This document shows positions 11,021 to 62,246 of a stretch of DNA of 64,000 bases, one piece after another. Below the pieces are notes generated by a model. That model ran no database searches and was not told the origin of the DNA. It worked only from the letters and a program-made list of their open reading frames with translations. How positions within the stretch are numbered: position 1 is the stretch's first letter; the number at the start of each line of letters is the position of its first letter. Both the position numbers and the translations under genes were made by a program. This stretch comes from Candidatus Methylomirabilota bacterium (GTDB lineage: Bacteria; Methylomirabilota; Methylomirabilia; Rokubacteriales; CSP1-6). The DNA lies in contig DASYTM010000010.1 of NCBI GenBank assembly GCA_036002345.1, positions 18,978-82,977 on the forward strand, given 5' to 3'.

Positions 11021-12445
11021 CTAATTCACGCGGACGACGCGGCCACCGGTGACGCGGCGCAGCTCGTCACTGGTGAGACGAAACACGGTGTGGGGATGGC
11101 CCCCCGCGGCCCAGATCGCGTCCCACTTCAGAAGATCCTCGTCCACGAGCGTCGTGAGCGGCGCGGGATGCGCGAGCGGCGCGACGCCCCCGATGGCGAA
11201 GCCGGTGTGCGCGCGCACGAACTCGGCGTCGGCCTTCCCGAGCGGCTCGCCGAGCAGCGCGCCGAGCTTGGCCTCATCCACCCGGTTCGCGCCGCTCGTG
11301 AGCACGAGCAACGGCCGCCCGCTGTCGCGCAGCCGGAACACGAGCGATTTCACGATCTGGCCGACGTCGCACCCGACGGCGCGCGCGGCGTCGGCGGAGG
11401 TGCGCGCGGCGTGCTCGAGCACCACGATGGTGGTCGTCACCCCCGCCGCCGCCAGGGCGTCGGCGACGCGGCGCGCGCTCGCGGGCAGCGCAGCCGGAGC
11501 AGCGACGATCGACCGGCAGGCGCGCATCTGGTCGAGGTGCTCCAGGTCGTGATCCGCCATGTGCGTGACGTACTGGGCGAGGCTGAGCGGGCCGAAGAAG
11601 CCGGAGAGGCCCGGCCGCTCGCCGGCGCCGGGCGGCAGCGTGGCGAGGTACGCGACCGCTTCGGCGCGCGCGCGGCGAAACGCCGCGAGGTCGTCCTCGA
11701 ACCGGCCCGCTCGACGGTCGCGCTCGCGCGCCCACGCCACGGGATCGAAGGCGGCGAAGCGCGGGCGGTCCTCGGTGGCCATGAGCCGGAAGCGCGGGAG
11801 GAAGAGCCGGCTGTCGAGCTCCATCAGGTGGGCCAGCACTTCCTTCATCGACCACTCCTCGGGCTCCGGCCGCCGGGAGAGCGTCTCGGCGTCGAGCCCC
11901 GCGGCGAGCGCGGCCACGAGGTCGGGCGTGGCGGCGAGTGGCTTCAGCAATTCGCCGAGCGGGAGCGCCACGCGCGCCTCGCAGCGCTTGGGCGTCAGGC
12001 CCAGCGTGGCGCGCACGTCCTGGATCTGCCGCAGGTGCTCGGTGTCGTGGGCGTCCATCGTCCGCGCGTAGGCCTCGACGCTCACGGCGCCGCGGCTCGG
12101 GCTCACGCCCTCGCGGCGCCAGCCGGCCTCGTCGAGCCCGCCGAGCAGCGTGATGGTCTGCTTGCGCGCGGCGGCGAACGCCGCCAGCAGCGTGGAGAGG
12201 TCCGCGTTGTCGCCCTCGGTGCGCTGGGTCTTGTCGAACACCGGGCGCGGCTCGGCGAGCATGCGGCGCAGGCGCGGCAGGAACGTGTCGCGGTCGCCCT
12301 CGACGAGGTGGCGCACGACCTCGCCGATCGACCACTCGCCGGGCTTGGGCGGCGTCCACGCGTGCGTCCCCGGGTCGCGCGCCATCTCGCCCAGCAGCGT
12401 CGGCGTGGCGGCGAGCCGCGCGACGGTCAGCTCGCGCTCGGTCAT
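11021..12445 (-). CDS. Fusion protein: two DinB_2-like (DinB/YfiT four-helix bundle) domains + YbaK/ProX-type aminoacyl-tRNA deacylase-like domain
   Basis: Two repeats with DinB-type His motifs (HLVEGDRD...HDTEHLRQI; HLMELDSR...HDLEHLDQM). C-terminus resembles the YbaK deacylase fold (GCDVGQIVKSLVF...VLTSGANRVDEAKL...GFAIGGVAP). Start MTERELT at 12445. Confidence 0.65.
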   Translation of the reverse strand: MTERELTVARLAATPTLLGEMARDPGTHAWTPPKPGEWSIGEVVRHLVEGDRDTFLPRLRRMLAEPRPVFDKTQRTEGDNADLSTLLAAFAAARKQTITLLGGLDEAGWRREGVSPSRGAVSVEAYARTMDAHDTEHLRQIQDVRATLGLTPKRCEARVALPLGELLKPLAATPDLVAALAAGLDAETLSRRPEPEEWSMKEVLAHLMELDSRLFLPRFRLMATEDRPRFAAFDPVAWARERDRRAGRFEDDLAAFRRARAEAVAYLATLPPGAGERPGLSGFFGPLSLAQYVTHMADHDLEHLDQMRACRSIVAAPAALPASARRVADALAAAGVTTTIVVLEHAARTSADAARAVGCDVGQIVKSLVFRLRDSGRPLLVLTSGANRVDEAKLGALLGEPLGKADAEFVRAHTGFAIGGVAPLAHPAPLTTLVDEDLLKWDAIWAAGGHPHTVFRLTSDELRRVTGGRVVRVN

Positions 12446-13176
12446 AGTGACCGCACCGCGCGCAGCACGTCGGCGGGATCGGGGCGCACCTGGAAGTTGT
12501 CGGCGAGGGAGAGCCAGCGCACGGCGCCGCCGCGATCGAGCACGATGGTCGCCGGCCGCGGCACGTCCTCGCCGTGCTCGCCGCCGCGCGCGTGGATCAG
12601 TCCGTAGCGGCGCGTCACGGCCAGGTCGCGATCGGCGACGAAGCGGAAGTTGAGCTTCAGCCCGCGCGCCAGCTCCTGGCTCCGCTCGTTGGGATCCGGC
12701 GAGACGGCGATGATCTCGACGCCGGCCTTCTCGGCCTCGGACAGCGCGGCTCCAAGCCCTTGGAGCTCCGCCACGCAGAACGGTCACCAGTAGCCGCGGT
12801 AGAAGACGAGGATCACCGGCTTCTTGCCGCGATACTCCGCGAGCGTGACGGGACGGCCGCCCGCGTCGGGCAGCGTGAAGTCCGGCGCGGGCCGGCCGAC
12901 GGCGAGCGCGGTCGGTGTGTCGGGGATTCGCGCCAGCACGAAGTTGAAGGTGGCGCCGCCCGCGAAGAGCGCCAGCGTCAGCCCCAGCGCGGTCCACGCG
13001 TACCAGCGGCGGCCGAGCGCCACGGCGAGGCCGGCGAGCGTCGCCGCGATCGCGAGCGCCGCCACGTAGCCCTCGGGCTGGTTGCGCACCGCGGGCACGC
13101 GCAGCAGCAGCGCGTACGCGGCGACGGCCGCGGCGGCGACGGCGAGGCTGAGGGCGGTGAGCCAGCCGGCGCGCAT
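12442..13176 (-). CDS. Membrane-anchored TlpA/ResA-like thiol:disulfide oxidoreductase (redoxin); candidate selenoprotein with in-frame TGA (Sec) at 12784-12786 giving a W-U-P-F-C motif
   Basis: A single frame is continuous across the TGA: ...APDFTLPDAGGRPVTLAEYRGKKPVILVFYRGYW-[TGA]-PFCVAELQGLGAALSEAEKAGVEIIAVSPD... It aligns to the redoxin consensus (APDFTL...WCPPCR.E.P). The N-terminus has 3-4 TM helices. Other genes in the window use TGA as a genuine stop. Confidence 0.7.
12749..12766 (-). promoter_or_regulatory. Candidate bacterial SECIS hairpin 17 nt downstream of the in-frame UGA of the redoxin gene
   Basis: mRNA reads UGA CCGUUCUGCGUGGCGGA GCUCCA-AGGGCU-UGGAGC. This is a perfect 6-8 bp stem with a G-rich apical loop. 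Confidence 0.4.
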
Positions 13177-13868
13177 CAGATCACGATGCGGTCGAAGCAC
13201 TCGGCGTAGGCATAACCCTTCGGCTGGCCGAGCTCGGCGTTGCGGTCGCGCACGCGCTTCTCGATGGCGGCGAAATCCTTGAACTGGCTCGCGTGGCAGG
13301 CGAGGGCCTTGATCTTGAGGTCCATCACGTCGCTGATGTCCACGACCACGTGCGGGTTCTGCCACTGCATGACGTAGACCTCGCGGACCTTGTGGGGCTC
13401 GAACTCCGCCATCAGCTCGGGGAAGGCGAGGTGGTCGCGCGACAGCGGATAGACGCAGTCCAGCGCCACGCCGGCCACCGTCCGGTGGTCGCGGTGCGAG
13501 GCCCCGAGATTGTACGTGCGCTGCGGATTCTGGCAGAGGACGAGGTCGGGCCGGAAGCGCCGGATCTCGCGCGAGACGTCGCGGCGGAGGTCGCGCGTGT
13601 CCTCGACCTCGCCGTCGGGATAGCCGAGGAAGGCGACCGACTCGATGCCGAGCGTGCGCGCGGCGTGCTTCTGCTCCTCGGCGCGGATGGCGGCCAGCCG
13701 CGGCGAGGTCATCGTGCGGTCGCTCGAGCCCTTGTCACCGTTGGTGACGACGACGAGGGCGACCTCCTTGCCTTCCTTGACGAACTTCGCCAGCGTCCCG
13801 CCCGCGCCGAACTCGGAGTCGTCGGGGTGGGCGGTGATCACGAGCACGCGCCGGATCGGGTCGGTCAT
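13176..13868 (-). CDS. PIG-L/LmbE family N-acetylglucosaminyl deacetylase (BshB/MshB-like)
   Basis: VLVITAHPDDSEFGAGGTLAKF...VVTNGDKG... matches the LmbE-like zinc deacetylase signature. TGATG overlap with the upstream redoxin start. Confidence 0.8.
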   Translation of the reverse strand: MTDPIRRVLVITAHPDDSEFGAGGTLAKFVKEGKEVALVVVTNGDKGSSDRTMTSPRLAAIRAEEQKHAARTLGIESVAFLGYPDGEVEDTRDLRRDVSREIRRFRPDLVLCQNPQRTYNLGASHRDHRTVAGVALDCVYPLSRDHLAFPELMAEFEPHKVREVYVMQWQNPHVVVDISDVMDLKIKALACHASQFKDFAAIEKRVRDRNAELGQPKGYAYAECFDRIVI

Positions 13869-15594: not shown

Positions 15595-15635
15595 GGGTTG
15601 GCAAGGCCCCCGCCGCCCTACCATAATGGGTGGAC

Positions 15636-18407
<2,772 letters not shown>

Positions 18408-18415
18408 GCACGGGC

Positions 18416-19852
18416 ATGCGGCGGACCAAGATCGTCTGCACCATCGGGCCCGCGTCCTCCACCGTCGCCGAGCTCGACCGCCTCGCCGCCGCGGGCATGG
18501 ACGTGGCGCGGCTCAACTTCTCGCACGGCACGCACGCCGAGCACGCCGAGGTCATCCGCCGCATCCGCGAGGCCGAAGCGCGCTGGCAGCGGCCCGTCGC
18601 GATCCTGCAAGACCTGCAGGGACCCAAGATCCGGCTCGGCACCTTCGGCGACGGCGGGGGCGGCCGCGTGGACCTCCAGCCCGGGCGCCCCTTCGCGCTC
18701 TGCCGCACGCCCTGCGTGGGGAGCGAGGCGCGCGTGTTCGTCTCGCCGCCCGAGTACCTCGGCCGGGTCAAGGCCGGCGACGAGATCTGGATGGACGACG
18801 GCATGATCCAGCTGCGCGTCGAGGCCACCACGCCGGACGAGGTCCGCTGCGTCGTGGTGGCGGGCGGCCGCATCAGCGACCACAAGGGCATCTCGCTGCC
18901 GCACGTGGATCTCCCCGCGTCGTGTCTCACCGAGAAGGACGTCGCGGATCTCAAGTTCGGCATCGAGCAGGGCGTGGACTTCGTGGCCGTCTCGTTCGTG
19001 CGCACGGCCGCCGACATCCGCGAGGTCCGGCGCTTCCTGGCCGCCCAGGGCGCCGAGATCCCGCTCGTGGCCAAGCTGGAGCGCCACGAGGTGCTCGCCA
19101 ACCTGCGCGACGTCATCGGCGCGGTGGACGCGGTGATGGTGGCGCGCGGCGACCTCGGCGTGGACGTGCCGCTCGAGGACGTGCCGCACATCCAGAAGGA
19201 GATCATCCGCCAGGCGCACGCCGCCAAGGTTCCCGTGATCGTGGCCACGCAGATGCTGGAGTCGATGGTCACCCACACGCGGCCCACGCGCGCGGAGGTC
19301 GCCGACGTGACGGCGGCGATCTTCGACGGCGCCGACGCCATCATGCTCTCCGCGGAGACGGCCTCCGGCCGCTACCCCGCCGAGGCCGTGGAGACGATGG
19401 CGCGGATCGCGGAGCGCGCCGAGCAGGCCACCCTCTGGATGGAGCCGCCGCGCCGGCGCCGCGACAGCCACGCGCCCGTCGGCTTTCCCGAGGCCATCTC
19501 CGACGCCGCCGCCAGCGCGGCCCGCGCCCTGGACGCGCGCGCCATCGTGGCCTTCACCCAGTCGGGCTTCTCCGCGCGGCTCATCTCGCAGGAGCGCCCG
19601 GCCACGCCGATCATCGCGTTCACGCCGTTCGCCAGCGTCCAGCGCCGGCTCGCGCTGACCTGGGGCGTGACGTCGCGGATCATCCGCAAGGTCGAGACCA
19701 CCGACGAGATGGTCGAGGAGATCGAGGCCACGCTGCTCGGCGACGGCACCGTCCGCGCCGGCGACGTGCTCGTGATCATCTCCGGGTCGCCCATGTGGGT
19801 GACCGGCACCACCAACCTCCTCAAGCTCCACCGCGTCGGGGAACGCCGCTGA
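18416..19852 (+). CDS. pyk: Pyruvate kinase
   Basis: MRRTKIVCTIGPAS...ARLNFSHG...MVARGDLGVDVP...ATQMLESM matches the canonical PK motifs. Confidence 0.95.
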   Translation: MRRTKIVCTIGPASSTVAELDRLAAAGMDVARLNFSHGTHAEHAEVIRRIREAEARWQRPVAILQDLQGPKIRLGTFGDGGGGRVDLQPGRPFALCRTPCVGSEARVFVSPPEYLGRVKAGDEIWMDDGMIQLRVEATTPDEVRCVVVAGGRISDHKGISLPHVDLPASCLTEKDVADLKFGIEQGVDFVAVSFVRTAADIREVRRFLAAQGAEIPLVAKLERHEVLANLRDVIGAVDAVMVARGDLGVDVPLEDVPHIQKEIIRQAHAAKVPVIVATQMLESMVTHTRPTRAEVADVTAAIFDGADAIMLSAETASGRYPAEAVETMARIAERAEQATLWMEPPRRRRDSHAPVGFPEAISDAAASAARALDARAIVAFTQSGFSARLISQERPATPIIAFTPFASVQRRLALTWGVTSRIIRKVETTDEMVEEIEATLLGDGTVRAGDVLVIISGSPMWVTGTTNLLKLHRVGERR

Positions 19853-22800
19853 GCCGCGGCCGCCGACTCCTCGTCCTCGGGGCGGCCGTCGCCGGCGTCG
19901 CGGGGGTGTGGATCGGGGGCGGCGTGCTGCTCCTGCGCGAGGTGGACGCGCGCGGCGCCGCCATGGCCGACCTCGCCGCCGAGCGCGCCGGCGCGGCCGT
20001 CGCCGAGGAGCGCCGCGCCCTCCTCCGCGAGGCGGCGCTGCTCGCGCAGGAGCCGGCCGTCGTCGAGGGCGCCGCCCGGCGCGACTGGGCGACGCTGGCC
20101 CGCGGGGCCGCGCGGCTGCGCTCGCTCACCATGGAAGGGCACGCCGACCTCGTCGTCGTCCTCGACGCCGCCGGCGCGCCGCTGCTCCAGGTCCCGGCCT
20201 CGCCACGCGTCGAGCTGCCCGCGCTGCCGCCGCCGGCGCGGCCCACGGTGAGCACCGTCACCCTCGGCGGGCGCGCGTACCTGCTCGGCGTGGCGCCGAT
20301 CGGCGGCGAGCCCGGAGGCGGCCTCGTCGTGGTGGGCCGGCGCGCCGAGCGGCCCGCCGCGGCCGGCGGCGACCGGCTGCGCCACTCGAACGAGGTGTCG
20401 CGCCAGGGCCTCGTGCGCGCGCTGGTGGCCAGCGGCGCGCTCGCGGCACTCGCGGCCGCCGCCATCGCGCTCTTCGCCACGCGACGGCGCGGCCCGGCGA
20501 CGCCGCGGGCCGCCGCCACGCCGGCGGCCACCGGCGGGCGCGAGCTCAAGGCCCTCTACGAGGCCGCCGTCCTCGTCGGCAGCGGCACCGAGCTCGAGGC
20601 GACGGTCACCCAGACCCTCGCCGTGATCTGCGCGGTGGCGCGGATCGACCTGGGCATGGTGTACCGCGTCGATCGCGCGAGCGGACGGCTGGCGCTCGTC
20701 GCGCACTACGCGATCCCTCCGCGCTACATGGACTTCCTCCAGACGCGGTCGATCGAGGGCACGCGCATCGGGCAGACCGCGCGCACCGGCGAGCACACGC
20801 TCGTGGACCTCGATCCCGCGCGGCTCCGCGATCCCGTCCTGAAGGAGGCCGTGGCCCGCGAGGGCTACCGCACGCAGCTCTCGCTGCCGATCCCGGTGCA
20901 GGGGACGACGTGGGGCGTGATGACGCTCGTCTCCAAGGAGCGCCGCCGCTTCGACGCCGACGAGCTCACGCTGCTCCACGCCGTCGGCCACCAGCTCGGG
21001 CTCGCCGTGGCCAACGCCGCGCTCTTCGCGGAGACGGGCGCCAAGTCCCGGCGGCTCGAGACGCTGACCCGCGTCGCCCAGGGCCTGGCCGCCACGCTGC
21101 CCGACGAGGAGCTGTTCGCCCGCGTGATCGGTGCCGCGCGCGAGACGTTCGACGCGGCCGCCGCGCGCCTCTGGCTCCTCGAGGAGGACGGCGAGACGCT
21201 CGTCATGCGCGCCGGCGCTGGCGTGGAGCTCGCGAGCGAGCTGCGCCGGGTGCGCGTCGGCGAGGGCCTCACCGGCCGGGTCGTGGCCCAGCGCGCGCCG
21301 CTGACCGTCGCCGACCTCGCCACGGACCCGCGCCCGCTCGCCAGCGACCGCCTGCTCGCGCAGGGCATGGCCGCCTACGCCGGCGTGCCGCTGGTGGTGG
21401 GCGACCGGGTCCTCGGCGGCCTGGCCATCGGCCTGGCCCGGCCGCACGAGTTCAGCGCCGAGGAGCTGGAGGTCCTCACCTCACTTGCCAACCTCGCCGC
21501 GGTGGCCATCGAGAACGCGCGCCTGCTGTCCGGCGAGCGCACGCGCCGCCAGTACCTCGGCGCCCTCCTCGACATCAACACCAAGATCGGCGCCATGGCG
21601 CCGACGGAGACCCTGCTCACCTCCATCGCCGAGGAGGCCGCGCGGCTGCTCGGCGTGGACAACGCCGGCTTCCGCCTCCTCGAGGGCGACGACCTCGTGC
21701 TGGCGGGGCTGGCAGGCACCGCGCGCGAGACGATGCTCCGCCCGCGCATCAAGATCGGTGAGAGCGTGAGCGGCAAGGTGCTGGCGGCGGGGCGGACGCT
21801 GCGGCTGGACATCGAGGAGGTGCCGGACATCGTGCCCGAGCACCTCGTCGCCGACCGGCGTCACGGTTACACGAAATTCCTCGGGGTGCCGCTGCGCATC
21901 GGCGAGCGGGTCATCGGCGTGCTCACGTTCCGCGCGCGCTGGCCCTTCAGCGCGCGCGACGAGGAGCTGGCGGAGGCGTTCGCCGGCCAGGCCGCCATCG
22001 CCATCGAGCACGCGCGCCTCGTGCGCGAGGCGTCGGAGCAGGCCGGGCGCCTGCGCGCGCTCACGGACCTCTCGCGCCTCTTCACGGGCACGCTCGAGCC
22101 CGACGTCGTCAACGAGCGGATCGTGGACAGCGTGGGGCGGCTCTTCGCGTCGGTGTCGGCGACGCTCTTCCGCATGGACCAGGCCACCGGGGAGCTCGTG
22201 CCCATGGCGACCTCGGCGGCCGGGACGCGCCTGGCGGCGCCCGTGCCCGTTCTGCCGCGCGGGGTCGGCATTTCCGGGCTGGCCGCGCTGTCGCGCCGGG
22301 TGGTGGTGTCGTCGGACGTGTCCGCGGACCCCAACATCGAGCGGAGCGACGCCCTGCGCGACTGGGCCGCCGCCGTCGGCGACTACTCCGCGATCGCGGT
22401 GCCGCTGGTGGTGGGCGACGTGCTGGTCGGCGTGCTCACCGTGCGCGGCGAGCGCGGCCGCGTCTTCGACCCGGCGGACTCGCAGCTGGCGCAGACGTTC
22501 GGCGACCAGGCGGCCCTCGCCCTCGCCAACGCGCGGCTGTACACGGAAGCGACGCAGCGGCGCGCGGAGGCCGAGGAGCTGGCGCGCCTGGCGCGCACGC
22601 TCACCGAGTCCCTCGACGTCTCGGAGGTCGTGGAGCGCACGGCGGAGAGCGTGCTGCCGATGTTCCGCGCGCAGTCCTCGGTGGTGCGGCTCCTCCAGCC
22701 CGACGGCTCGCTGGTGGCCCTCGCCCTGGGCGGGCGCGCGCGCGACCAGTTCGAGATGGGCCACGTGCTGCCGCCCGGCGTGGGCGTGCTGGGGCGCGCC

Positions 22801-25800
22801 GTGGTGAACGGCCGCGTCGCGTCGTCGTCCGACCTGTTCACCGACCGGAGCACGCGCGTCTCCGACGATCTGCGCGAGCGCGTGCACGCCAGCGGCGACG
22901 GCGCGGTGCTGGCGGTGCCCATGCGCGCCAAGGGCGTGATCATCGGCGCGCTGGGGATCGCCGACCGGCCCGGCCGGATCTTCACGGACGGCGAGGCGGC
23001 CCTGCTGCAGGCCTTCGCCGACCAGGCCACGCTGGCGCTGGAGAACGCCCGGCTGTTCTCGCTCGAGCGCGCGCGCCGCCAGCAGATCGCCGCCCTGGCC
23101 GACATCGAGCGCGAGCTGGCCGCCGTCCTCGACGCCGAGCGCCTGCCCGACCTGATCGTCGAGCGCGCCACCGGGCTCTTCAAGGCCAACGGCGCGCTGT
23201 GGATCATGGACGAGGCGGGAGGCCTGATGCCCCGGGCGTGGCGGGGGCAGGACCTCACGGGCGAGCGCCTGGGGCGGGGCGAGGGCTTCGCGGGCCTGGC
23301 CGTGAGCGAGCGGCGCGGCTTCATCACCAACGACTACGCGCGCTCGCCGCACGCGGTGGGGCGCTACGTCGACGCCGGCGTGCGCAGCATCATCGTGCAG
23401 CCCGTGATCCTGCGCGACCGGCCGCTCGGCGTGCTCACCATGAGCCGCGTGAGCACGGAGGCGCCGCCCTTCGGGGTCGAGGACCTCGCCCTGCTGCAGA
23501 GCTTCGCCGCCCACGCCGCCACCGCCCTCGACAACGCGCGCCTGTACGAGGAGGCGCGCCGCTACGCCGACCGGCTGCGCGCGCTGGAGGAGGTCAACCG
23601 CCTCGTCTCGTCCTCGCTCAATCCCGACGAGGTCCTCGCCAACCTTGCCCGCGCGATCTCGCAGTTCTTCGACGCGCCGTACGTGAGCGTGTGGAGCCTC
23701 GACGAGAGCACGGGCCGGCTGCGGCGGGCCCTCACCCACGGCGACTCCAGCCTGGCCTCCGACCTCCACCAGGAGCTCGCCCCCGGCGAGGGCGCGGTGG
23801 GCTGGGTCGTCCAGCACCGCGAGCCCATCCTGTGGACGGACGTGACCACGGACCCGCGCATCATCGACGGCGCGGAGCTGACGCGCGCCGGGTTCAAGTC
23901 GTTCACCGCCTATCCCGTCGCCATCGGCGAGCGCATGCTCGGCGCCTTCGCCGTGCACCGCGCCTCGCCGTGGCTGCTCACGCCGGAGACGGCGTCGCTC
24001 ATGGGCTCGCTGGCCGCGCAGGCGGCGGTGGCGCTGGAGAACGCGCGCCTCTACTCGGAGACGACTCGGCGCCTGACGGAGACCCGCGCCCTCCTCGAGG
24101 TGGCCGAGGTGCTGAACTCCACCCTCGACGCGCGCCAGCTCCTCAAGCGCGTCGCCATCAAGCTCGCGCAGATCCTCCAGGTGGACCGCTGCACGATCGA
24201 GCGCTGGGACGGCGACCGCGTCATCCCGCTCATGTCGCAGTTCGCCGACGGCCGGCGTCGCGAGCGGATGTGGGAGGCCTTCCTCACCGTCACCAACCGT
24301 CCCCTGCGTGACGTGCCGACCAACGCGCGCGCCATCGAGACGCGCCGGCCCGTGATCGTGGACGACGCCACCGATCCCGCCCTCACGCCGGCCGACTGGG
24401 TGGCGGCCTTCGGGCTCAAGTCGTACATGGTGGTGCCGATGCTCCGGCAGGAGGAGGTCATCGGCGTGGTCACGCTCGACTACTGCGAGCGGGTGGGGCG
24501 CTTCGCGCCGTGGCAGGCCGATCTCGCCACGGCCGTGGTCGGCCAGGTCGCCCTCGCGCTGGAGAACACGCGCCTGTACGGGGAGGCGCAGGAGCGGCTG
24601 CGCGAGACCACCACGCTGCTCGCGGTCGGCCGCGTGCTCACCGAGCGCGCCAGCGGCCCGGAGGCCATGCGCCGGGTGGCGGCGGAGGTCGCGCGCGCGT
24701 TCGGCGCCGACATGGCCGGCGCGTGCCTGCTCGACGAGCGCAAGGAGCGGCTCGTGGCCGTGGGCGGCTACCACGTCCCCAAGGATCTGCTGCAGGCCTT
24801 CGCGGAGCGCCCCATCGTGCTCGACCGCTTCCCGTGGCTGCAGGACGCCTGGCGCGCCGGCCGCGCCGCCACCAGCCCGGATCCGCACGCCGATCCGCGC
24901 TTCGACCAGGCGTGGCAGGCCGCGATGCCGCCGCACTCGCTCCTCTTCGTGCCCACGCTCGCCCACGGCGAGCCCGTCGGCGGCCTCTTCCTCGTGTGGT
25001 GGCACACCGGCCGCCTGTTCGATCCCGCCGAGATCCGCCTCGTGGAGGGCGTGGCCGCGCAGGTCGGCCTCGCCATGGAGAACGCCGAGCTGGCGCGCCA
25101 GACCCAGGTGAAGCTCGCCGAGACGCAGACGCTGCTCTCCGTGAGCCGCGCGCTCTCCACGACCCTCGACCTCCAGCAGCTCGTGCGGCACTTTCTGCGC
25201 GCCGTCGCCACCACCCTCGGCGCCGACTCCGTGGGCTCGTGGCTCGTGCAGGAGGACGGGGAGTGGATGGAGCCGCTCGTCGGCTACCACCTGCCGCGGG
25301 AGCGGCTCGCCGACGCCCGCGAGCTCCGGATCTCGCTGCTCAAGCACCCGTTCTACGCGGAGGCCGCGCGCACCAGGCGTCCGGTGTTCACGAGCGACGC
25401 CATGAACGACTCGCGCCTGCCCCCGGCCGTGCGCGAGCGCGGCTCGCACCGGACGCAGCTCTTCGTGCCCGTCGTGGTCAAGGACCGGATGATCGCCGCC
25501 TTCGCCGCCATCTGGTGGGAGACGGCGCGCGAGTTCTCCGAGGACGAGCTGGCCCTCATGGAGGCCATCGCCAACCAGGCGGGCGTCGCGCTCGAGAACG
25601 GCCGCCTCTTCGAGGAGAATCGCCAGCGCCTCGAGGAGCTGTCCGTGCTGCACGACCTCTCGCGCGCCGTCACCGGCCAGCTCGAGCGCGGGGCGATCGT
25701 GGAGGCGGTGCGGCGCCACATCGCGCGCGTGCTGGACGCGCGCAACCTCGTCATCATCGTGCGCGACGAGGAGCGGGACGAGCTGGAGGTGACGCTGCGG

Positions 25801-27285
25801 GTCACCGACGGCGCCGACGACCCGAGCGAGCCGCGGCGCTACCCGCTGGAAGACATCGGCCTCATGTCCGTCGTCCTCGCCACCGGCCGGCCCCTGCGGA
25901 CCGACGACTACGCGGCGGAGTGCGAGCGGCGGGGCGTGCAGCCCGTGGCGGGCTCCGCCGATCGCAAGACCTGGCTCGGCGTGCCGATGACGGCGGGCGA
26001 GCAGGTCCTCGGCGTCATCGTCCTGCGCGGGGCCGCGCGCCCCTACGGCGCCGCCGACGAGCAGCTCCTCCTCAACATCGCCCACCTGGCCGCCCTCGCC
26101 CTGCGCAGCGTGCGCCTGTACGAGGAGCGCACGCGCGCCTACGGCGAGCTGGCGGCCGCCCAGGACCAGCTCGTGCGCACCGAGAAGCTGCGCGCGCTGG
26201 GCGAGATGGCCTCCGGCGTGGCGCACGACTTCAACAACCTGCTCGCCTCCGTGCTGGGCCGCGCCCAGCTCCTGATGCGCCGCGTGCAGGACCCGCAGCA
26301 GCGGGAGTGGCTGCGTGTCATCGAGCGCTCCGCCCTGGACGGCGCGGCCACGGTGCGGCGGCTGCAGGAGTTCACGCGCATCCGTCGCGACCAGCCCATG
26401 GTGCCGCTGGACGTGGCGCAGATCGTGCGCGACGCGCTCGACATCACCCAGTCGCGCTGGCGCGAGGAGCCAGTGAGCCGCGGCATCGTCGTCGACGTCC
26501 AGGCCGATCTCGCCGCCGTGCCGCCCATCCTCGGCGACGCCGCCGAGCTCCGCGAGGCGCTCACCAACCTGATCCTCAACGCCGTGGACGCGATGCCCGC
26601 GGGCGGGACGCTGCGCCTGGTCACCGCCGCCAACGACGACCACGTGGAGGTCGCCGTGTCCGACACGGGCGTCGGCATCCCGCCCGCCGTGCGCGAGAAG
26701 ATCTTCGACCCCTTCTTCACCACCAAGGGCCCGCAGGGCACCGGGCTCGGGCTGTCGATGACCTACGGCATCGTGTCGCGGCACGGCGGCTTCGTGAGCG
26801 TGGAGAGCGAAGAGGGGCGCGGCTCCACGTTCCGGCTGTCCTTCCCGTCGGCGGCTGCCGTGGAGCCGGCGACCCCGGCCGCCAAGCCCGCCGCCTCGGC
26901 GCCCACGCGCACGCTGCGCTGTCTCGTGGTCGACGACGAGGCCGACGTGCGCAGCGTGCTCGGGGACGTCATCGAGTCCGCCGGCCACCAGGCCACGCTG
27001 ATCGCGGGCGGCGCGGACGCGATCGAGCGATTCCGCGCCGAGCCCTTCGACGTCGTGCTGACCGACCTCGCCATGCCCCGCGTCTCCGGCTGGCAGGTGG
27101 CGCGCGCCGTCAAGCAGATCGCGCCGCGCGTGCCCGTGTTCCTCGTGACGGGCTTCGGCGTGGAGCTGTCGCCCGAGGAGCGCCGCACCCACGGCGTGGA
27201 CCTCGTGCTCGTCAAGCCGCTGCAGATCCAGGAGATCCTCGACGCCCTGGCCGAGGTGGCGCGCAACGCCGCGCCGCCCGCCTGA
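19849..27285 (+). CDS. Giant multi-GAF hybrid sensor histidine kinase (2 TM + periplasmic sensor, then about 11 tandem GAF domains, HisKA, HATPase_c, C-terminal REC). The start codon is uncertain (CTG at 19849, GTG at 19906, or ATG at 19963).
   Basis: The N-terminus has two hydrophobic helices flanking a ~180-aa region. There are 10-11 recurrences of the GAF terminal-helix motif A(L/I)(E/A)NARL(Y/F/L). HisKA H-box EKLRALGEMASGVAHDFNNLLASV. HATPase GTGLGLSM. REC LRCLVVDDEADVRSVL...VVLTDLAMPRVSG. Confidence 0.85.
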   Translation: MSRGRRLLVLGAAVAGVAGVWIGGGVLLLREVDARGAAMADLAAERAGAAVAEERRALLREAALLAQEPAVVEGAARRDWATLARGAARLRSLTMEGHADLVVVLDAAGAPLLQVPASPRVELPALPPPARPTVSTVTLGGRAYLLGVAPIGGEPGGGLVVVGRRAERPAAAGGDRLRHSNEVSRQGLVRALVASGALAALAAAAIALFATRRRGPATPRAAATPAATGGRELKALYEAAVLVGSGTELEATVTQTLAVICAVARIDLGMVYRVDRASGRLALVAHYAIPPRYMDFLQTRSIEGTRIGQTARTGEHTLVDLDPARLRDPVLKEAVAREGYRTQLSLPIPVQGTTWGVMTLVSKERRRFDADELTLLHAVGHQLGLAVANAALFAETGAKSRRLETLTRVAQGLAATLPDEELFARVIGAARETFDAAAARLWLLEEDGETLVMRAGAGVELASELRRVRVGEGLTGRVVAQRAPLTVADLATDPRPLASDRLLAQGMAAYAGVPLVVGDRVLGGLAIGLARPHEFSAEELEVLTSLANLAAVAIENARLLSGERTRRQYLGALLDINTKIGAMAPTETLLTSIAEEAARLLGVDNAGFRLLEGDDLVLAGLAGTARETMLRPRIKIGESVSGKVLAAGRTLRLDIEEVPDIVPEHLVADRRHGYTKFLGVPLRIGERVIGVLTFRARWPFSARDEELAEAFAGQAAIAIEHARLVREASEQAGRLRALTDLSRLFTGTLEPDVVNERIVDSVGRLFASVSATLFRMDQATGELVPMATSAAGTRLAAPVPVLPRGVGISGLAALSRRVVVSSDVSADPNIERSDALRDWAAAVGDYSAIAVPLVVGDVLVGVLTVRGERGRVFDPADSQLAQTFGDQAALALANARLYTEATQRRAEAEELARLARTLTESLDVSEVVERTAESVLPMFRAQSSVVRLLQPDGSLVALALGGRARDQFEMGHVLPPGVGVLGRAVVNGRVASSSDLFTDRSTRVSDDLRERVHASGDGAVLAVPMRAKGVIIGALGIADRPGRIFTDGEAALLQAFADQATLALENARLFSLERARRQQIAALADIERELAAVLDAERLPDLIVERATGLFKANGALWIMDEAGGLMPRAWRGQDLTGERLGRGEGFAGLAVSERRGFITNDYARSPHAVGRYVDAGVRSIIVQPVILRDRPLGVLTMSRVSTEAPPFGVEDLALLQSFAAHAATALDNARLYEEARRYADRLRALEEVNRLVSSSLNPDEVLANLARAISQFFDAPYVSVWSLDESTGRLRRALTHGDSSLASDLHQELAPGEGAVGWVVQHREPILWTDVTTDPRIIDGAELTRAGFKSFTAYPVAIGERMLGAFAVHRASPWLLTPETASLMGSLAAQAAVALENARLYSETTRRLTETRALLEVAEVLNSTLDARQLLKRVAIKLAQILQVDRCTIERWDGDRVIPLMSQFADGRRRERMWEAFLTVTNRPLRDVPTNARAIETRRPVIVDDATDPALTPADWVAAFGLKSYMVVPMLRQEEVIGVVTLDYCERVGRFAPWQADLATAVVGQVALALENTRLYGEAQERLRETTTLLAVGRVLTERASGPEAMRRVAAEVARAFGADMAGACLLDERKERLVAVGGYHVPKDLLQAFAERPIVLDRFPWLQDAWRAGRAATSPDPHADPRFDQAWQAAMPPHSLLFVPTLAHGEPVGGLFLVWWHTGRLFDPAEIRLVEGVAAQVGLAMENAELARQTQVKLAETQTLLSVSRALSTTLDLQQLVRHFLRAVATTLGADSVGSWLVQEDGEWMEPLVGYHLPRERLADARELRISLLKHPFYAEAARTRRPVFTSDAMNDSRLPPAVRERGSHRTQLFVPVVVKDRMIAAFAAIWWETAREFSEDELALMEAIANQAGVALENGRLFEENRQRLEELSVLHDLSRAVTGQLERGAIVEAVRRHIARVLDARNLVIIVRDEERDELEVTLRVTDGADDPSEPRRYPLEDIGLMSVVLATGRPLRTDDYAAECERRGVQPVAGSADRKTWLGVPMTAGEQVLGVIVLRGAARPYGAADEQLLLNIAHLAALALRSVRLYEERTRAYGELAAAQDQLVRTEKLRALGEMASGVAHDFNNLLASVLGRAQLLMRRVQDPQQREWLRVIERSALDGAATVRRLQEFTRIRRDQPMVPLDVAQIVRDALDITQSRWREEPVSRGIVVDVQADLAAVPPILGDAAELREALTNLILNAVDAMPAGGTLRLVTAANDDHVEVAVSDTGVGIPPAVREKIFDPFFTTKGPQGTGLGLSMTYGIVSRHGGFVSVESEEGRGSTFRLSFPSAAAVEPATPAAKPAASAPTRTLRCLVVDDEADVRSVLGDVIESAGHQATLIAGGADAIERFRAEPFDVVLTDLAMPRVSGWQVARAVKQIAPRVPVFLVTGFGVELSPEERRTHGVDLVLVKPLQIQEILDALAEVARNAAPPA

Positions 27286-29855: not shown

Positions 29856-31253
29856 CTACGCCTCTTTCGCCGCGCCACCGACGGCCAACGGATGCAACAC
29901 GTCGATCGCCCAGCCCACGTCGAGGCGCTCGCCGGACCAGCCGGGTCGGGAGGTCTGCGCGTTGATGTGAAGGCCGCGCACGTCGTTGTCTGCTCTGAGC
30001 GCCGCCGCGGGATCGGGAGCCACGACCGGCGGAGGCGGCACCTCCGGCAGTAACTCCCCATCCGGCCGCCTGAAGCGGAGCGCTCCGTCCTCCTGCTGTT
30101 CGATCCGGTAACCCTCTTCGTGGACGCTGCGGTGGTGCCGCCGACAGAGCATGACGAGGTTCGACAGCGTCGTCGGGCCGCCATGGGCCCAGTGCTGGAT
30201 GTGATGGCCCTGCCCGAACGGCAGCCCGCAGCCCGGGAAACGGCACCCGCGGTCGCGATGCTCCAGCGCCCGGCGGAGCGCGGGCGGAATCGTCCGGGTC
30301 CGGGCGCCAACCTCCGTGACGTGGCCGTCCGCGTCGTGGCGCATCACCACCCGGCTCGCGTCGCACGCCAGGCGCCGGGATGTTTCCGCGGAACCGTGGC
30401 CGCCGTCTTCGAGGACGGACTGGCCCGGGGCGTCCGGGTCCGCCAGGACCGGCGCATCGACGTGAACCACGACCTGGTAGCGCTCGCCCGCCGTCCCCGG
30501 CTCGAGGCCATGATGGAGTGCGGTTTCCGCCAGCAAGCCGAGGGCGTCGGCCTGCCGCTGCCCCCAGGTCGGCGCGTCATCGCCGACGATCCGGCCCGTC
30601 TCCGGATCGAGCGTTTCCGCGGAAACGTTTCTGGCGCGTCCAGACGGATACAGCACCTCGCAGGCCGCGGACAGTGCCTTCTTCACCACGGCGCCGACCT
30701 CGCGGTCCAGCCGCCCGCGGATGACCACCATCCCGTCCGCGTCTTCATAGAGGTGGAGGGCGCGGCTCCGGTGGCGCTGAAGACTGTCGCGCGCTTCCGC
30801 CTTTCGGTCGACGCCGCGCCAGCCCCGGACGACCCGCTCGACGTGCTCGGCGGTGCCCGCCCGGCCGACCTTGAGCAGTCGCCCTTCGGTTTCGGGCGTC
30901 GCCACCCGTGTCAACGCTCGGACCTTCGAGTACGACAGCTCGCCGCGGGCCAAGGCATCCGCCAGCACCGGCAGCCGGCCCAGGGCTCGCGCGACGCGCA
31001 CGCGCTCCCGAGCGGCACCTGGGTCGAGACCGACACGCCAGGTCAGCCAGTGGGCGCACGACCGGAAGCCGGTGCCCCAACCCTCGCGCGCGTCGAACTC
31101 GCGGATGAGATCGAGCAGCCTGGCCGTCGCTGCATCGAGGTGCGCGGACAGCTCGCCGATCTGGTCGCCGAGCCGCTCGAGCTCGGCGGCATCCGGCGTG
31201 ACGGTGGGTGGGAGCGGCGGCGCGACTCGGACATCATCGAATGCGGTGTTCAT
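29856..31253 (-). CDS. DUF222 / HNH endonuclease signature motif protein (13E12-repeat family)
   Basis: The N-terminal DUF222 region (ELERLGDQIGELSAHLDAATARLLDLIREFDAREGW...CAHWLTWRVGL) and the C-terminal HNH motif (CRFPGCGLPFGQGHHIQHWAHGGPTTLSNLVMLCRRHHRSVHE) are typical of this mobile-element-associated family. Confidence 0.8.
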   Translation of the reverse strand: MNTAFDDVRVAPPLPPTVTPDAAELERLGDQIGELSAHLDAATARLLDLIREFDAREGWGTGFRSCAHWLTWRVGLDPGAARERVRVARALGRLPVLADALARGELSYSKVRALTRVATPETEGRLLKVGRAGTAEHVERVVRGWRGVDRKAEARDSLQRHRSRALHLYEDADGMVVIRGRLDREVGAVVKKALSAACEVLYPSGRARNVSAETLDPETGRIVGDDAPTWGQRQADALGLLAETALHHGLEPGTAGERYQVVVHVDAPVLADPDAPGQSVLEDGGHGSAETSRRLACDASRVVMRHDADGHVTEVGARTRTIPPALRRALEHRDRGCRFPGCGLPFGQGHHIQHWAHGGPTTLSNLVMLCRRHHRSVHEEGYRIEQQEDGALRFRRPDGELLPEVPPPPVVAPDPAAALRADNDVRGLHINAQTSRPGWSGERLDVGWAIDVLHPLAVGGAAKEA

Positions 31254-38988: not shown

Positions 38989-39633
38989 ATGCCCATTCTC
39001 CAGCCCCGCGACGAGGAAGCCGTTCGCAAGGAGTTCCAGCGCCTCGCCGGACCCGTGAAGCTGGTCGTCTTTTCTCAGGAGCTGGTGGCGGGCGACCTCT
39101 GCCGTCAGAACGAGCAGCTGTTGAAGGAGGTCGCGGCGCTCTCGGACCAGATCACCGTCGAGGTGCTCAACCCTGCCATCGACAAGGACCGCGCCGCCGC
39201 CTACGGCATCGACCAGGTCCCGGCCACCGTCGTGGAGGGCGCGCGCGACTACGGCATCCGCTTCCTCGGCGTGCCCGCCGGCTACGAGTTCAGCAACCTC
39301 ATCGACTCGATCATCGCCGTGTCGAGCGGGGAGGCCATGCTGACCGCGGACACCAAGGCCTCGCTGGCCGCGCTGGCCGGCGACGTCGAGATCAAGGTCT
39401 TCTCCACCCCCACCTGACCGCACTGTCCCCGGGCCGTGCGCCTGGCACAGCACATGGCGATCGCGTCGGACCGCGTGACGGCCACGGCCATCGACGCCTC
39501 GGAGTTTCCCGACCTCGCGCGCGCCTACCAGGTGAGCGGCGTGCCGAAGATCGTCATCAACGACAAAGTCGAGCTGCTCGGCGCGTACCCGGAGCCGCAG
39601 TTCCTCGAGGCGGTGCTGCGCGCCGTCGCATGA
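38989..39633 (+). CDS. AhpF-N-terminal/PDO-like glutaredoxin-like protein disulfide oxidoreductase (two thioredoxin-fold units); candidate selenoprotein with in-frame TGA (Sec) at 39415-39417 giving T-U-P-H-C (DsbA-type CPHC motif with Sec)
   Basis: The frame is continuous: ...DVEIKVFSTPT-[TGA]-PHCPRAVRLAQHMAIASDRVTATAIDASEFPDLARAYQVSGVPKIVINDKVELLGAYPE... It matches the second (CxxC-bearing) unit of AhpF-NTD/PDO proteins (CPYCP...ID..EFPELA.KY.V.SVP.IVIN). Confidence 0.65.
39423..39450 (+). promoter_or_regulatory. Candidate bacterial SECIS hairpin 6 nt downstream of the in-frame UGA of the PDO-like gene
   Basis: CUGUCC-CCGGGC-CGUGC-GCCUGG-CACAG forms an extended, near-perfect stem (one G•U) with a 5-nt loop. 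Confidence 0.4.
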
Positions 39634-43330: not shown

Positions 43331-43382
43331 AATGAGCGCGTAACTCCGCGTCTCCCCAACGCGCGCGCCGACACGCCGCGCG

Positions 43383-43398
43383 TGGCACGTCCGCTGCA
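43383..43398 (+). promoter_or_regulatory. Sigma-54 (-24/-12) type promoter upstream of the nitrate assimilation operon
   Basis: TGGCACgtccgcTGCA against the consensus TGGCAC-N5-TTGCA. It lies ~56 nt upstream of the nrtA GTG start. Confidence 0.5.
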
Positions 43399-43453
43399 CT
43401 TCTTTCCCCGCGGCATTTCTGTGTTGCGCACGTTTCGCGCAGGGGGAGGACCA

Positions 43454-46247: not shown

Positions 46248-46248
46248 G

Positions 46249-62110: not shown

Positions 62111-62246
62111 GGTGTTGCGTTGTACAAGCCCGGTGCCAGACCCAAACGTGGGCGAACGGTCGGAAAAGGGCCGGGAACGACTGTGAAAACAGGCAAGTGG
62201 CCCACTCGGAAGGGGGACGCTGATGCGGCATCTGGTGCAATGCGTT

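What the first reader, a model, noticed from the sequence alone, without database searches (positions are those of the whole stretch)
12442..13176. In-frame UGA at the catalytic Cys of a TlpA-like redoxin (W-U-P-F-C): candidate selenoprotein split by ORF calling
Two ORFs the track reports separately (12784-13365 and 12442-12774) are in the same frame, separated only by a TGA at 12784-12786. Reading through gives a textbook redoxin active site (...VILVFYRGYW-U-PFCVAELQGL...) with the TGA exactly where the N-terminal Cys of WCxxC sits. A 6-8 bp hairpin (GCUCCA/UGGAGC) begins 17 nt after the UGA. Other genes in the window terminate normally with TGA, so this is local recoding and not an alternative genetic code.
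Basis: partly seen in the sequence, partly recalled or inferred. Interest (0 to 1): 0.8.

Follow-up and report, generated by a model that had tools for sequence, protein, structure and literature searches.

The report
Selenocysteine redoxin gene split by UGA
The two "separate" ORFs are one gene for a membrane-anchored redox protein whose catalytic residue is selenocysteine, encoded by an in-frame UGA; the gene is real and almost always cut in two in databases, but it belongs to a selenoprotein type known for about twenty years.

Summary
On the minus strand, 13176..12442 is a single 244-codon gene: three predicted transmembrane helices followed by an AhpC/TSA redoxin domain. It has an in-frame TGA at 12786..12784, in the motif FYRGYW-U-PFC.

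- **Conservation of the TGA:** 77 of 80 related genome loci and 80 of 80 soil-metagenome loci carry TGA at this codon. The three exceptions, all Gemmatimonadota, have TGC. More distant homologues have WCPFC.
- **Coding continues after the TGA:** the frame stays open for about 113 codons and is under purifying selection.
- **The hairpin is real:** GCUCCAA-GGGC-UUGGAGC fits the published bacterial SECIS model. Its folding energy is unremarkable. However, in 76 distinct relatives the stem codons are frozen on rare codons, while the loop and flanking synonymous sites vary freely. The Acidobacteria orthologues carry a different hairpin that shows compensatory changes.
- **A second case in the window:** a second in-frame TGA (39415) sits in a known selenoprotein family, TIGR02187.
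- **What is missing:** no sel genes or tRNA-Sec lie in the window.

By the field's own definition (PF00578 plus UxxC) this is a Prx-like thiol:disulfide oxidoreductase selenoprotein, so it is a new member of a known kind. Interest is modest. The practical value lies in annotation, because public databases hold this clade as truncated fragments.

The parts
12442..13176 (-). Complete read-through coding sequence of the selenoprotein: 244 codons plus a TGA stop at 12444..12442
   Evidence: Continuous translation with one internal TGA. PF00578 AhpC-TSA matches across residues 93-221, spanning the TGA, with E=3e-31. Orthologues keep the frame open for 113-121 codons after the TGA.
12784..12786 (-). 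Sec codon UGA (codon 131)
   Evidence: TGA sits at this codon in 77/80 genome loci and 80/80 metagenome loci; 3 Gemmatimonadota loci have TGC. Cys homologues P0001, P0069, P0072 and P0098 have WCPFC here.
12775..12786 (-). Redox motif U-P-F-C (codons 131-134)
   Evidence: W130, U131, P132 and C134 are invariant across the family alignment. C134 aligns with the peroxidatic Cys of BCP peroxiredoxins, and the Sec aligns with their Thr/Ser.
12749..12766 (-). bSECIS-type hairpin: 7-bp stem GCUCCAA/UUGGAGC with a 4-nt loop GGGC, 24 nt between the UGA and the loop
   Evidence: Hairpin energy -9.1 kcal/mol, spacing 24 nt, loop starts with GG. In 76 distinct relatives the stem codons are CTC 76/76, CAA 76/76, CTT 75/75 and GGA 74/76 (the other two are GGG, which keeps a G-U pair). 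The loop Gly codon uses all four synonymous codons.
12743..12772 (-). Possible extended hairpin: lower stem GGCG/CGCU plus a 2x2 internal loop. Not conserved.
   Evidence: Suboptimal fold at -17.7 kcal/mol versus an MFE of -19.6. The lower stem is not kept in relatives.
12928..13176 (-). N-terminal membrane anchor with three predicted transmembrane helices (about residues 6-25, 38-54, 62-82) and no cysteines
   Evidence: Read directly from the sequence. The region is conserved in relatives, including the loop motif VRNxPEGY and the Arg-rich second loop. No Pfam family matches it. The N-in, domain-out topology is inferred from the positive-inside rule and from lipobox-bearing Cys homologues P0069 and P0072.
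12514..12900 (-). AhpC/TSA (Prx-like thioredoxin-fold) domain, residues 93-221
   Evidence: Pfam PF00578 108 bits and PF08534 82 bits. An AlphaFold model of the 76%-identical Cys form P0001 has pLDDT 85. Foldseek best matches are BCP/AhpE at TM 0.71-0.75 and ResA at 0.63-0.65.
13176..13868 (-). Upstream operon partner: PIG-L/LmbE-type deacetylase (230 aa). Its stop overlaps the redoxin start (TGATG).
   Evidence: PF02585 on the identical JGI contig. Adjacent to the redoxin in Rokubacteria loci L001 and L005-L009. The fused gene model P0024 joins the two.
11021..12445 (-). Downstream operon partner: two DinB_2 domains plus a YbaK-type tRNA_edit domain (474 aa). Its start overlaps the redoxin stop (ATGA).
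   Evidence: Pfam families listed on the identical JGI contig. Whole or partial synteny in L001 and L006-L009.
38989..39633 (+). Second selenoprotein gene in the window: protein disulfide oxidoreductase with an in-frame TGA at 39415..39417 (T-U-P-H-C-P) and the hairpin CCGGGC-CGUGC-GCCUGG at 39429..39445
   Evidence: Found by the in-frame-stop scan. TIGR02187.2 PDO_seleno_TRX scores 257.7 bits against a cut-off of 185. Hairpin energy -8.9 kcal/mol, 17 nt after the UGA. The family is listed as a UxxC selenoprotein in PMC13188914.

Best explanation
The region 13176..12442 (minus strand) is one gene for a selenoprotein. The UGA at codon 131 is decoded as selenocysteine. A short hairpin inside the coding sequence (GCUCCAA-GGGC-UUGGAGC, with its loop 24 nt after the UGA) serves as the bacterial SECIS element. 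It recruits SelB-GTP-Sec-tRNASec to the ribosome when the UGA is in the A site.

The product is a three-helix membrane-anchored Prx-like (AhpC/TSA-fold) thiol:disulfide oxidoreductase. Its redox centre is U131-P-F-C134, a selenol/thiol to selenenylsulfide couple. The domain most probably faces the periplasm.

Shown here: the in-frame UGA, its alignment with Cys, its conservation, coding constraint downstream of it, and RNA-level constraint on the hairpin.

Inferred: actual Sec insertion through the Sel machinery, the membrane topology, and the substrate. In Rokubacteria the gene is translationally coupled to an LmbE-type deacetylase and a DinB/MST-like protein. This hints at, but does not show, a link to low-molecular-weight thiol chemistry.
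For: 1. One Pfam AhpC-TSA match (E=3e-31) spans the TGA.
2. Cys homologues have WCPFC at the same place. In the PDB alignments, C134 aligns with the peroxidatic Cys and the Sec aligns with the Thr/Ser of TxxC.
3. TGA occurs at this codon in 77/80 genome loci from Methylomirabilota, Acidobacteriota, Verrucomicrobiota and other phyla, and in 80/80 metagenome loci. The search patterns did not depend on the codon.
4. Of the top 150 cluster representatives, 103 end exactly at ...RGxW and only 1 continues with WCxxC.
5. The frame stays open for 113-121 codons after the TGA. dN/dS is 0.27-0.54 downstream, similar to upstream.
6. The hairpin meets the bSECIS model given in PMC13188914: loop 3-9 nt, stem of at least 4 bp, a G in the first two loop positions, spacing 16-37 nt, and energy of -7.5 kcal/mol or lower.
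7. The stem codons CTC, CAA, CTT and GGA are frozen in 76 distinct sequences. In this window CAA, CTT and GGA make up only 8.6%, 2.3% and 5.8% of their synonymous families, a joint probability of 1.2e-4. The loop Gly codon and the flanking codons vary freely.
8. The Acidobacteria-type orthologues have a different hairpin, ACUCCG-AGUUR-CGGRGU. It is 93.5% paired, three pairs show double compensatory changes, 0 of 500 shuffles reach the observed covariation score, and the score is 0.230 against at most 0.066 for slid controls.
9. The three Cys-form loci lack such hairpins.
10. A second in-frame UGA in the same window lies in a curated selenoprotein family.
11. The literature reports Methylomirabilota MAGs with very large selenoproteomes (PMC13188914).
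Against: - No selA, selB, selD or tRNA-Sec was found in the 64-kb window or in the flanks of related loci. Not every ORF in the window was scanned.
- The hairpin's thermodynamic stability is not above background (z=0.17). Random coding positions meet the bSECIS criteria 18% of the time.
- Rfam has no matching family.
- No protein-level evidence exists.
- The topology and the physiological substrate are inferred only.
Confidence: 0.93

Rival explanations
1. The UGA is recoded, but to cysteine or tryptophan rather than selenocysteine. This could happen by near-cognate read-through of the leaky UGA-C context, or by a SelB-like factor that delivers Cys.
For: No Sec machinery was seen in the window. 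UGA followed by C is invariant. From my own knowledge, Cys insertion at Sec codons and Cys-recoding tRNAs have been reported in some bacteria.
Against: The conserved hairpins have G[G/U] loops at SECIS-like spacing. A second UGA lies in a curated selenoprotein family. The phylum is reported to be rich in selenoproteins. TGC would be the simpler way to obtain Cys, and it is used in only 3 of 160 loci.
Confidence: 0.04
2. The TGA is a true stop. The locus is a pseudogene or carries a sequencing or assembly error, or it encodes two separate polypeptides: a 130-aa N-terminal piece and a 110-aa piece restarting at GTG 12774.
For: Gene callers and public databases report exactly these two fragments. 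UGG-UGA offers a weak Shine-Dalgarno-like GGUGA 9 nt before GTG 12774, read directly from the sequence.
Against: The same TGA occurs in 157 independent loci. Purifying selection acts on both sides of it. The split would cut the thioredoxin fold at its active site. The Acidobacteria orthologues have AAC, not a start codon, at the supposed restart position.
Confidence: 0.02
3. The organism uses an alternative genetic code in which UGA is a sense codon.
For: None beyond the in-frame TGA itself.
Against: Of 29 high-confidence ORFs, 19 end in a genuine TGA stop. Only two in-frame TGAs occur in coding context in 64 kb, and both are at the first Cys of a CxxC motif.
Confidence: 0.005

Closest known systems
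Prx-like thiol:disulfide oxidoreductase selenoprotein family (pfam00578, UxxC/UxxU; Kryukov & Gladyshev 2004; Zhang et al. 2005; reviews PMC9312934 and PMC13188914)
   Same: It has an AhpC/TSA domain, with Sec as the first residue of a thioredoxin-like UxxC motif in place of the TxxU of true Sec-peroxiredoxins. It has Cys homologues and an intragenic bSECIS. It meets the reviews' own operational definition, which is domain plus motif.
   Different: This clade has a three-helix N-terminal membrane anchor. It is found mainly in soil Methylomirabilota, Acidobacteriota and Verrucomicrobiota rather than in Deltaproteobacteria or marine samples. No NCBIfam model reaches its cut-off. I could not compare it directly with the exemplar WP_010940744.1.
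TlpA / ResA / CcmG membrane-anchored periplasmic thiol:disulfide oxidoreductases
   Same: It shares the membrane anchor, a probably outward-facing thioredoxin-fold domain, the W-C/U-x-x-C motif, and an invariant Pro at the cis-Pro position (P208).
   Different: NCBIfam TlpA scores 24 bits against a cut-off of 230, and ResA scores 50 against 170. Structural matches to ResA (TM 0.63-0.65) are weaker than those to BCP/AhpE. The anchor has three helices rather than one, and Sec replaces Cys.
BCP/PrxQ/AhpE peroxiredoxins
   Same: These are the closest solved structures by sequence (E=1e-13) and by fold (TM 0.71-0.75). C134 aligns with their peroxidatic Cys.
   Different: The PxxxTxxC signature is absent: Arg replaces the Pro and Sec replaces the Thr. 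The catalytic-Arg position is only 70-90% conserved. The BCP equivalog scores 57 bits against a cut-off of 140.
SelL-related redox proteins (NCBIfam NF040769; PRX_like2 group)
   Same: They have a Prx-like fold with a C/U-x-x-C/U motif at the same position. This is the second-best NCBIfam hit (E=5e-14).
   Different: The score is 52 bits against a cut-off of 120, so it is not a member by that model.
TIGR02187 PDO_seleno_TRX (homologue of the AhpF N-terminal domain), relevant to the second gene at 38989..39633
   Same: The score is 257.7 bits against a cut-off of 185, and the UxxC lies in the second thioredoxin unit. The family is listed as a selenoprotein family.
   Different: Nothing notable. 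It is an ordinary member.

Membership tests
Prx-like thiol:disulfide oxidoreductase selenoprotein (pfam00578, UxxC/UxxU) | AhpC/TSA (PF00578) domain | tested here: met
   PF00578 scores 108.2 bits against a cut-off of 26, over residues 93-221 and across the UGA.
Prx-like thiol:disulfide oxidoreductase selenoprotein (pfam00578, UxxC/UxxU) | Sec in a UxxC motif, rather than the TxxU of true Sec-Prx | tested here: met
   The motif is W-U-P-F-C. The Sec aligns with the Thr/Ser of TxxC and C134 aligns with the peroxidatic Cys.
Prx-like thiol:disulfide oxidoreductase selenoprotein (pfam00578, UxxC/UxxU) | Direct homology to, or clustering with, the family exemplar (WP_010940744.1) | not testable with these tools
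   The exemplar sequence could not be retrieved by accession.
Bacterial selenoprotein gene (general) | In-frame UGA aligned with Cys in homologues | tested here: met
   P0001, P0069, P0072 and P0098 have WCPFC at this position. L060, L063 and L075 have TGC.
Bacterial selenoprotein gene (general) | UGA-containing orthologues in other organisms, with conserved coding sequence downstream | tested here: met
   157/160 loci have TGA. The downstream ORF is 113-121 codons long with dN/dS of 0.27-0.54.
Bacterial selenoprotein gene (general) | bSECIS hairpin: loop 3-9 nt, stem of at least 4 bp, G in the first two loop positions, 16-37 nt from the UGA, energy of -7.5 kcal/mol or lower | tested here: met
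   Loop GGGC, 7-bp stem, spacing 24 nt, -9.1 kcal/mol. The criteria alone are weak, because 18% of background positions meet them. The element is supported instead by frozen stem codons and by covariation in the orthologous hairpin.
Bacterial selenoprotein gene (general) | selA, selB, selC (tRNA-Sec) and selD present in the genome | not testable with these tools
   None was found in the window or in locus flanks, and the rest of the genome is not available. Indirect support comes from the second selenoprotein gene in the window and from reports that Methylomirabilota are rich in selenoproteins.
Bacterial selenoprotein gene (general) | Selenium incorporated into the protein | not testable with these tools
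   This needs 75Se labelling or mass spectrometry.
TlpA / ResA thiol:disulfide oxidoreductases | Score above the curated family model cut-off | tested here: not met
   TlpA NF047696 scores 24.4 against 230. ResA NF002854 scores 50.5 against 170.
TlpA / ResA thiol:disulfide oxidoreductases | Membrane-anchored, extracytoplasmic thioredoxin fold with WCxxC and a cis-Pro | tested here: inconclusive
   The W-U-x-x-C motif and an invariant P208 are present, and there are three predicted TM helices. The outward orientation is inferred only, from the Arg-rich second loop and from lipobox-bearing Cys homologues.
Peroxiredoxin (BCP/PrxQ) | PxxxTxxC active-site signature with an invariant catalytic Arg | tested here: not met
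   FYRGYWUPFC aligns against FFPAAFSPVC. The Pro is replaced by Arg and the Thr/Ser by Sec. The Arg position is below 90% conserved. The BCP model scores 57 against 140.
SelL-related redox protein (NF040769) | Score above the curated cut-off | tested here: not met
   52.3 bits against 120.

The most novel reading that the evidence does not exclude
This may be a distinct clade of three-helix membrane-anchored, outward-facing Sec-redoxins that is not yet modelled or annotated, and in which selenocysteine is essentially fixed. TGA is present in 157 of 160 loci. Among cluster representatives, truncated forms outnumber Cys forms 103 to 1. The clade is spread over several soil phyla and uses three different lineage-specific SECIS hairpins. 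It could be one of the most common selenoproteins of soil Acidobacteriota and Methylomirabilota. In Rokubacteria it may be functionally tied to an LmbE-type deacetylase and a DinB/MST-type enzyme, which would suggest envelope redox chemistry dependent on low-molecular-weight thiols.
Probability: 0.3. Interest if true: 0.45.

Novelty: new member of a known kind. Interest (0 to 1): 0.3.

Why it matters
The main value is in annotation. Public protein sets hold this gene almost only as a 130-145-aa fragment named "redoxin domain-containing protein", a roughly 110-aa tail, or artefactual spliced or fused models. No NCBIfam model captures it. Recognising it restores a full-length redox enzyme in hundreds of soil-bacterial genomes.

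It also adds to the picture of Methylomirabilota and Acidobacteriota as substantial users of selenium in soil. The near-complete fixation of Sec over Cys, and the replacement of one SECIS hairpin by another within the same few codons, are tidy material for studying how recoding signals evolve inside coding sequence. Neither point changes what is known about how selenocysteine is inserted.

Tried and rejected
- **Rfam:** the gathering-threshold scan of the window gave no hit, and Rfam has no general bSECIS family.
- **Folding energy against shuffles:** uninformative in 73% GC sequence, with z=0.17 for the redoxin hairpin and 1.03 for the second gene.
- **bSECIS criteria as a test:** 18% of random coding positions pass, so I did not use them as evidence on their own. 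My strict contiguous-stem version also passed only 32 of the 76 TGA loci it evaluated, because many Acidobacteria hairpins are short.
- **Sel machinery:** ARAGORN on the window and on 60 loci found no tRNA-Sec. Pfam on 20 window ORFs of suitable size found no SelA, SelB or SelD.
- **Extending the contig:** exact-protein look-up returned only short JGI contigs of 8.5 and 9.8 kb, and one look-up found nothing.
- **Structure prediction:** I modelled the 76%-identical Cys form P0001 instead.
- **First locus search:** the first alignment was too gappy for the locus search and was replaced by A2.
- **Other in-frame TGAs in Rokubacteria loci:** all were ordinary junctions between adjacent genes.
Full report
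**1. What is in the sequence**

The window is 73% GC. On the minus strand the ORF list reports 12784..13365 and 12442..12774 as separate ORFs. Both are in one frame. Translating 13176..12442 gives a continuous 244-codon product with a single internal stop...KKPVILVFYRGYW*PFCVAELQGLGA..., with the TGA at 12786..12784.

The ATG at 13176 overlaps the stop of the upstream gene (TGATG). The terminal TGA at 12444..12442 overlaps the ATG of the downstream gene (ATGA). The gene therefore sits in a translationally coupled operon.

With Cys written in place of the stop, Pfam gives one AhpC-TSA match (PF00578, 108 bits, residues 93-221) that runs straight across the TGA. Redoxin (PF08534, 82 bits) also matches. 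Residues 1-83 form three hydrophobic helices without cysteines and match no Pfam family.

**2. Is it more than chance, and is UGA otherwise a stop?**

I scanned all six frames for in-frame stops flanked on both sides by coding-like codon composition (GC3 of at least 0.86). Apart from ordinary junctions between adjacent genes, this found exactly two TGAs in 64 kb. One is this TGA. The other is at 39415..39417, in ...VFSTPT*PHCPRAV... Both stand where the first Cys of a CxxC motif belongs. Of 29 high-confidence ORFs, 19 end in a genuine TGA stop. This is local recoding, not a reassigned code.

**3. Homologues**

A search of about 5.8 billion proteins returned 106 relatives.

- Most of the close relatives are 134-148 residues long and end at ...VFYRGYW. 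They are truncated at the same stop.
- Others begin at VAELQGLG, which is the tail fragment.
- Three gene models (P0002, P0012, P0026) jump over the UGA region, as if an intron had been called there.
- P0024 is fused to the upstream gene.
- Cys forms exist. P0001 is 76% identical and reads YRGYWCPFCTAELQGLG. P0069, P0072 and P0098 also carry WCPFC.

In the library of 1.84 billion cluster representatives, I examined the best 150 matches to the N-terminal fragment. Of these, 103 end exactly at RGxW, one continues with WCxxC, and the rest are fragments or unrelated.

**4. DNA of relatives**

I scanned one genome per GTDB species with two peptide patterns that do not include the Cys/Sec codon. This gave 573 relatives, of which the best 80 were kept. 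Seventy-seven carry TGA at the homologous codon. They include:

- Methylomirabilota/Rokubacteria (L001-L010, up to 78% identity);
- many classes of Acidobacteriota;
- Chthoniobacterales and other Verrucomicrobia;
- MAGs labelled Dormibacterota, Binatia, Actinomycetota and Limnocylindria.

Three Gemmatimonadota loci have TGC. One TGA form (L076) has U-P-F-Y, which lacks the second Cys.

A scan of soil metagenomes with the window protein gave 80 more close relatives, and all 80 have TGA.

After the TGA the frame stays open for 113-121 codons in nearly all loci and ends at a homologous ...LRAVRAL terminus. For the first 60 downstream codons, dN/dS against the Rokubacteria orthologues is 0.27-0.54. 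This is similar to the 45 upstream codons.

**5. The hairpin**

GCUCCAA is at 12766..12760, the loop GGGC at 12759..12756, and UUGGAGC at 12755..12749. It begins 17 nt after the UGA, so 24 nt separate the UGA from the loop. Its energy is -9.1 kcal/mol.

This satisfies the published bSECIS model as summarised in PMC13188914: loop 3-9 nt, stem 4-16 bp, a G in the first two loop positions, spacing 16-37 nt, and energy of -7.5 kcal/mol or lower.

On its own this is weak evidence. The local folding energy is no better than shuffles (z=0.17). In addition, 18% of all in-frame positions in the window's genes pass the same criteria, and 12% have a hairpin at least as stable.

The comparative evidence is strong. 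In 76 distinct Rokubacteria-type sequences, the four codons that make up most of the stem are frozen:

| Codon after UGA | Amino acid | Codon use |
|---|---|---|
| +7 | Leu | CTC 76/76 |
| +8 | Gln | CAA 76/76 |
| +10 | Leu | CTT 75/75 |
| +11 | Gly | GGA 74/76; the other two are GGG, which turns U-A into U-G |

By contrast, the loop Gly codon (+9) uses all four synonymous codons. The Ala codon just after the stem also uses all four. Other conserved Leu, Gly, Val, Ala and Pro columns show 2-4 synonymous codons, with the commonest at 41-88% (the 11-genome version is).

CAA, CTT and GGA are rare in this window. They make up 8.6%, 2.3% and 5.8% of their synonymous families, a joint probability of 1.2e-4.

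The lower stem that RNAfold adds in the window sequence is not conserved.

**6. Other lineages use other hairpins**

The 62 Acidobacteria-type orthologues carry ACUCCG-AGUUR-CGGRGU, with 16 nt between the UGA and the loop. A variant reads ACCUCG-AGUUA-CGAGGN. On this helix:

- 93.5% of cells are paired;
- three of six pairs show changes on both sides (20 cells);
- none of 500 shuffles reaches the observed covariation score;
- the score is 0.230, against at most 0.066 when the 3' partners are slid by 1-3 columns.

Blastocatellia and Binatia have a third form, CAGCUU-GGA-AAGCUG or CAGCUC-GGU-GAGCUG. All three loop types start with G[G/U], or have it at positions 2-3. The three TGC loci show none of these hairpins.

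**7. Does the organism use Sec?**

No tRNA-Sec, SelA, SelB or SelD was found in the window or in the flanks of 60 related loci. The rest of the genome is out of reach. The exact-protein look-up returned only 8.5- and 9.8-kb contigs of JGI metagenome 3300036861.

Indirect support is good. The second in-frame TGA lies in a gene (38989..39633) that scores 257.7 bits, against a cut-off of 185, on TIGR02187.2 PDO_seleno_TRX. This family is listed among UxxC selenoproteins. The gene has its own hairpin, CCGGGC-CGUGC-GCCUGG, 17 nt after the UGA. A 2026 review also cites a Methylomirabilota MAG predicted to have 63 selenoprotein genes (PMC13188914).

**8. What the protein is like**

By sequence, the closest solved structures are BCP-type peroxiredoxins (E=1e-13). 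In those alignments C134 matches the peroxidatic Cys. The Sec matches the Thr/Ser of the TxxC signature. The Pro of PxxxTxxC is replaced by Arg.

An AlphaFold model of the Cys form P0001 (pLDDT 85) matches BCP/AhpE at TM 0.71-0.75 and ResA at 0.63-0.65.

Across the family the invariant residues are F125, Y126, R127, G128, W130, U131, P132, C134, S159, D161, D182, P208 and, at 99%, R231. P208 sits at the thioredoxin cis-Pro position. The Arg before it is only 70-90% conserved.

All curated NCBIfam models fall well below their cut-offs:

| Model | Score (bits) | Cut-off (bits) |
|---|---|---|
| BCP | 57 | 140 |
| SelL-related | 52 | 120 |
| ResA | 50 | 170 |
| TlpA | 24 | 230 |

The picture is a peroxiredoxin-like fold that carries a thioredoxin-type U-x-x-C centre. 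This is exactly how the literature describes the "Prx-like" selenoprotein family (PMC1088965; PMC9312934).

Topology is inferred. The loop between helices 2 and 3 is Arg-rich (GRRW here, RARTRRW in relatives). This places it in the cytoplasm and places the domain outside. The Cys homologues P0069 and P0072 carry lipoprotein signal peptides, which also points to an extracytoplasmic location.

**9. Context**

The gene order is PIG-L/LmbE-type deacetylase, then the Sec-redoxin, then a protein with two DinB_2 domains and a YbaK-type domain, then an M28-PDZ peptidase. This order is kept, whole or in part, in Rokubacteria loci L001 and L005-L009, but not in Acidobacteria.

LmbE-type deacetylases and DinB/MST-type enzymes are both associated with mycothiol and bacillithiol chemistry, as far as I know. 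This is a lead for function and nothing more.

**10. Verdict**

The gene is a genuine selenoprotein gene (confidence 0.93). By domain and motif it belongs to the Prx-like thiol:disulfide oxidoreductase selenoproteins, which have been known since 2004-2005. It comes from a phylum already reported to be rich in selenoproteins. It is therefore a new member of a known kind.

Three things are modestly new:

- the three-helix anchor;
- the breadth of this clade in soil phyla, with Sec almost fixed;
- its systematic truncation in databases, with no curated model to catch it.

Noticed in passing
window 38989-39633 (+), TGA at 39415-39417: A second selenoprotein gene. It is a two-unit protein disulfide oxidoreductase with the motif T-U-P-H-C-P. 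It scores 257.7 bits on TIGR02187.2 PDO_seleno_TRX (cut-off 185). The hairpin CCGGGC-CGUGC-GCCUGG lies 17 nt after the UGA. ORF callers split this gene as well.
   Followed up: partly
window 43518-43603 (+): ARAGORN calls an 86-nt 'tRNA-Pro (cgg)' with the anticodon at position 31. It lies inside the NMT1_2 transporter ORF (43382-44701, E=4e-92), and Rfam reports no tRNA there. It is probably a false positive.
   Followed up: partly
proteins P0002, P0012, P0026, P0024: Public gene models deal with the UGA in odd ways. Three skip about 25-30 codons around it, as if an intron had been spliced out. One fuses the upstream PIG-L gene to the N-terminal fragment of the redoxin.
   Followed up: no
L076:10001-10771: One Bryobacteraceae orthologue has FYRGYW-U-PFY. 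It keeps the Sec, but the second (resolving) Cys is replaced by Tyr.
   Followed up: no
L011-L080 compared with L001-L010 and L021/L044/L064/L074: Orthologues in different phyla place three different hairpins in the same 10-codon stretch after the UGA, with spacings of 16, 24 and about 20-21 nt. The SECIS element seems to have been replaced over time while the protein stayed the same.
   Followed up: partly
window 18388-27285 (+): A very long ORF of about 2,800-2,960 codons with coding-like composition lies directly after uvrA (15630-18407). It was not examined.
   Followed up: no
window 43382-51380 (+): An apparent nitrate/nitrite assimilation cluster. It contains an NMT1-type binding protein, an ABC ATPase, a molybdopterin oxidoreductase (47003-49114), a nitrite/sulfite reductase (48964-50613) and a tetrapyrrole methylase (50400-51380).
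   Followed up: no
window 55069-63874 (-), and L082: An AtzG-like protein plus an amidase, an AMP-binding/PP-binding protein, a P450 (seen on the identical JGI contig) and a further long ORF. This looks like a small natural-product or acyl-activation cluster.
   Followed up: no
window 29856-31253 (-): A DUF222 + HNH endonuclease gene, which may mark a mobile element.
   Followed up: no
window 11021-12445 (-): An unusual fusion of two DinB_2 domains (with weak MST and MDMPI_N signals) to a YbaK-type aminoacyl-tRNA editing domain. It is translationally coupled to the selenoprotein gene.
   Followed up: no
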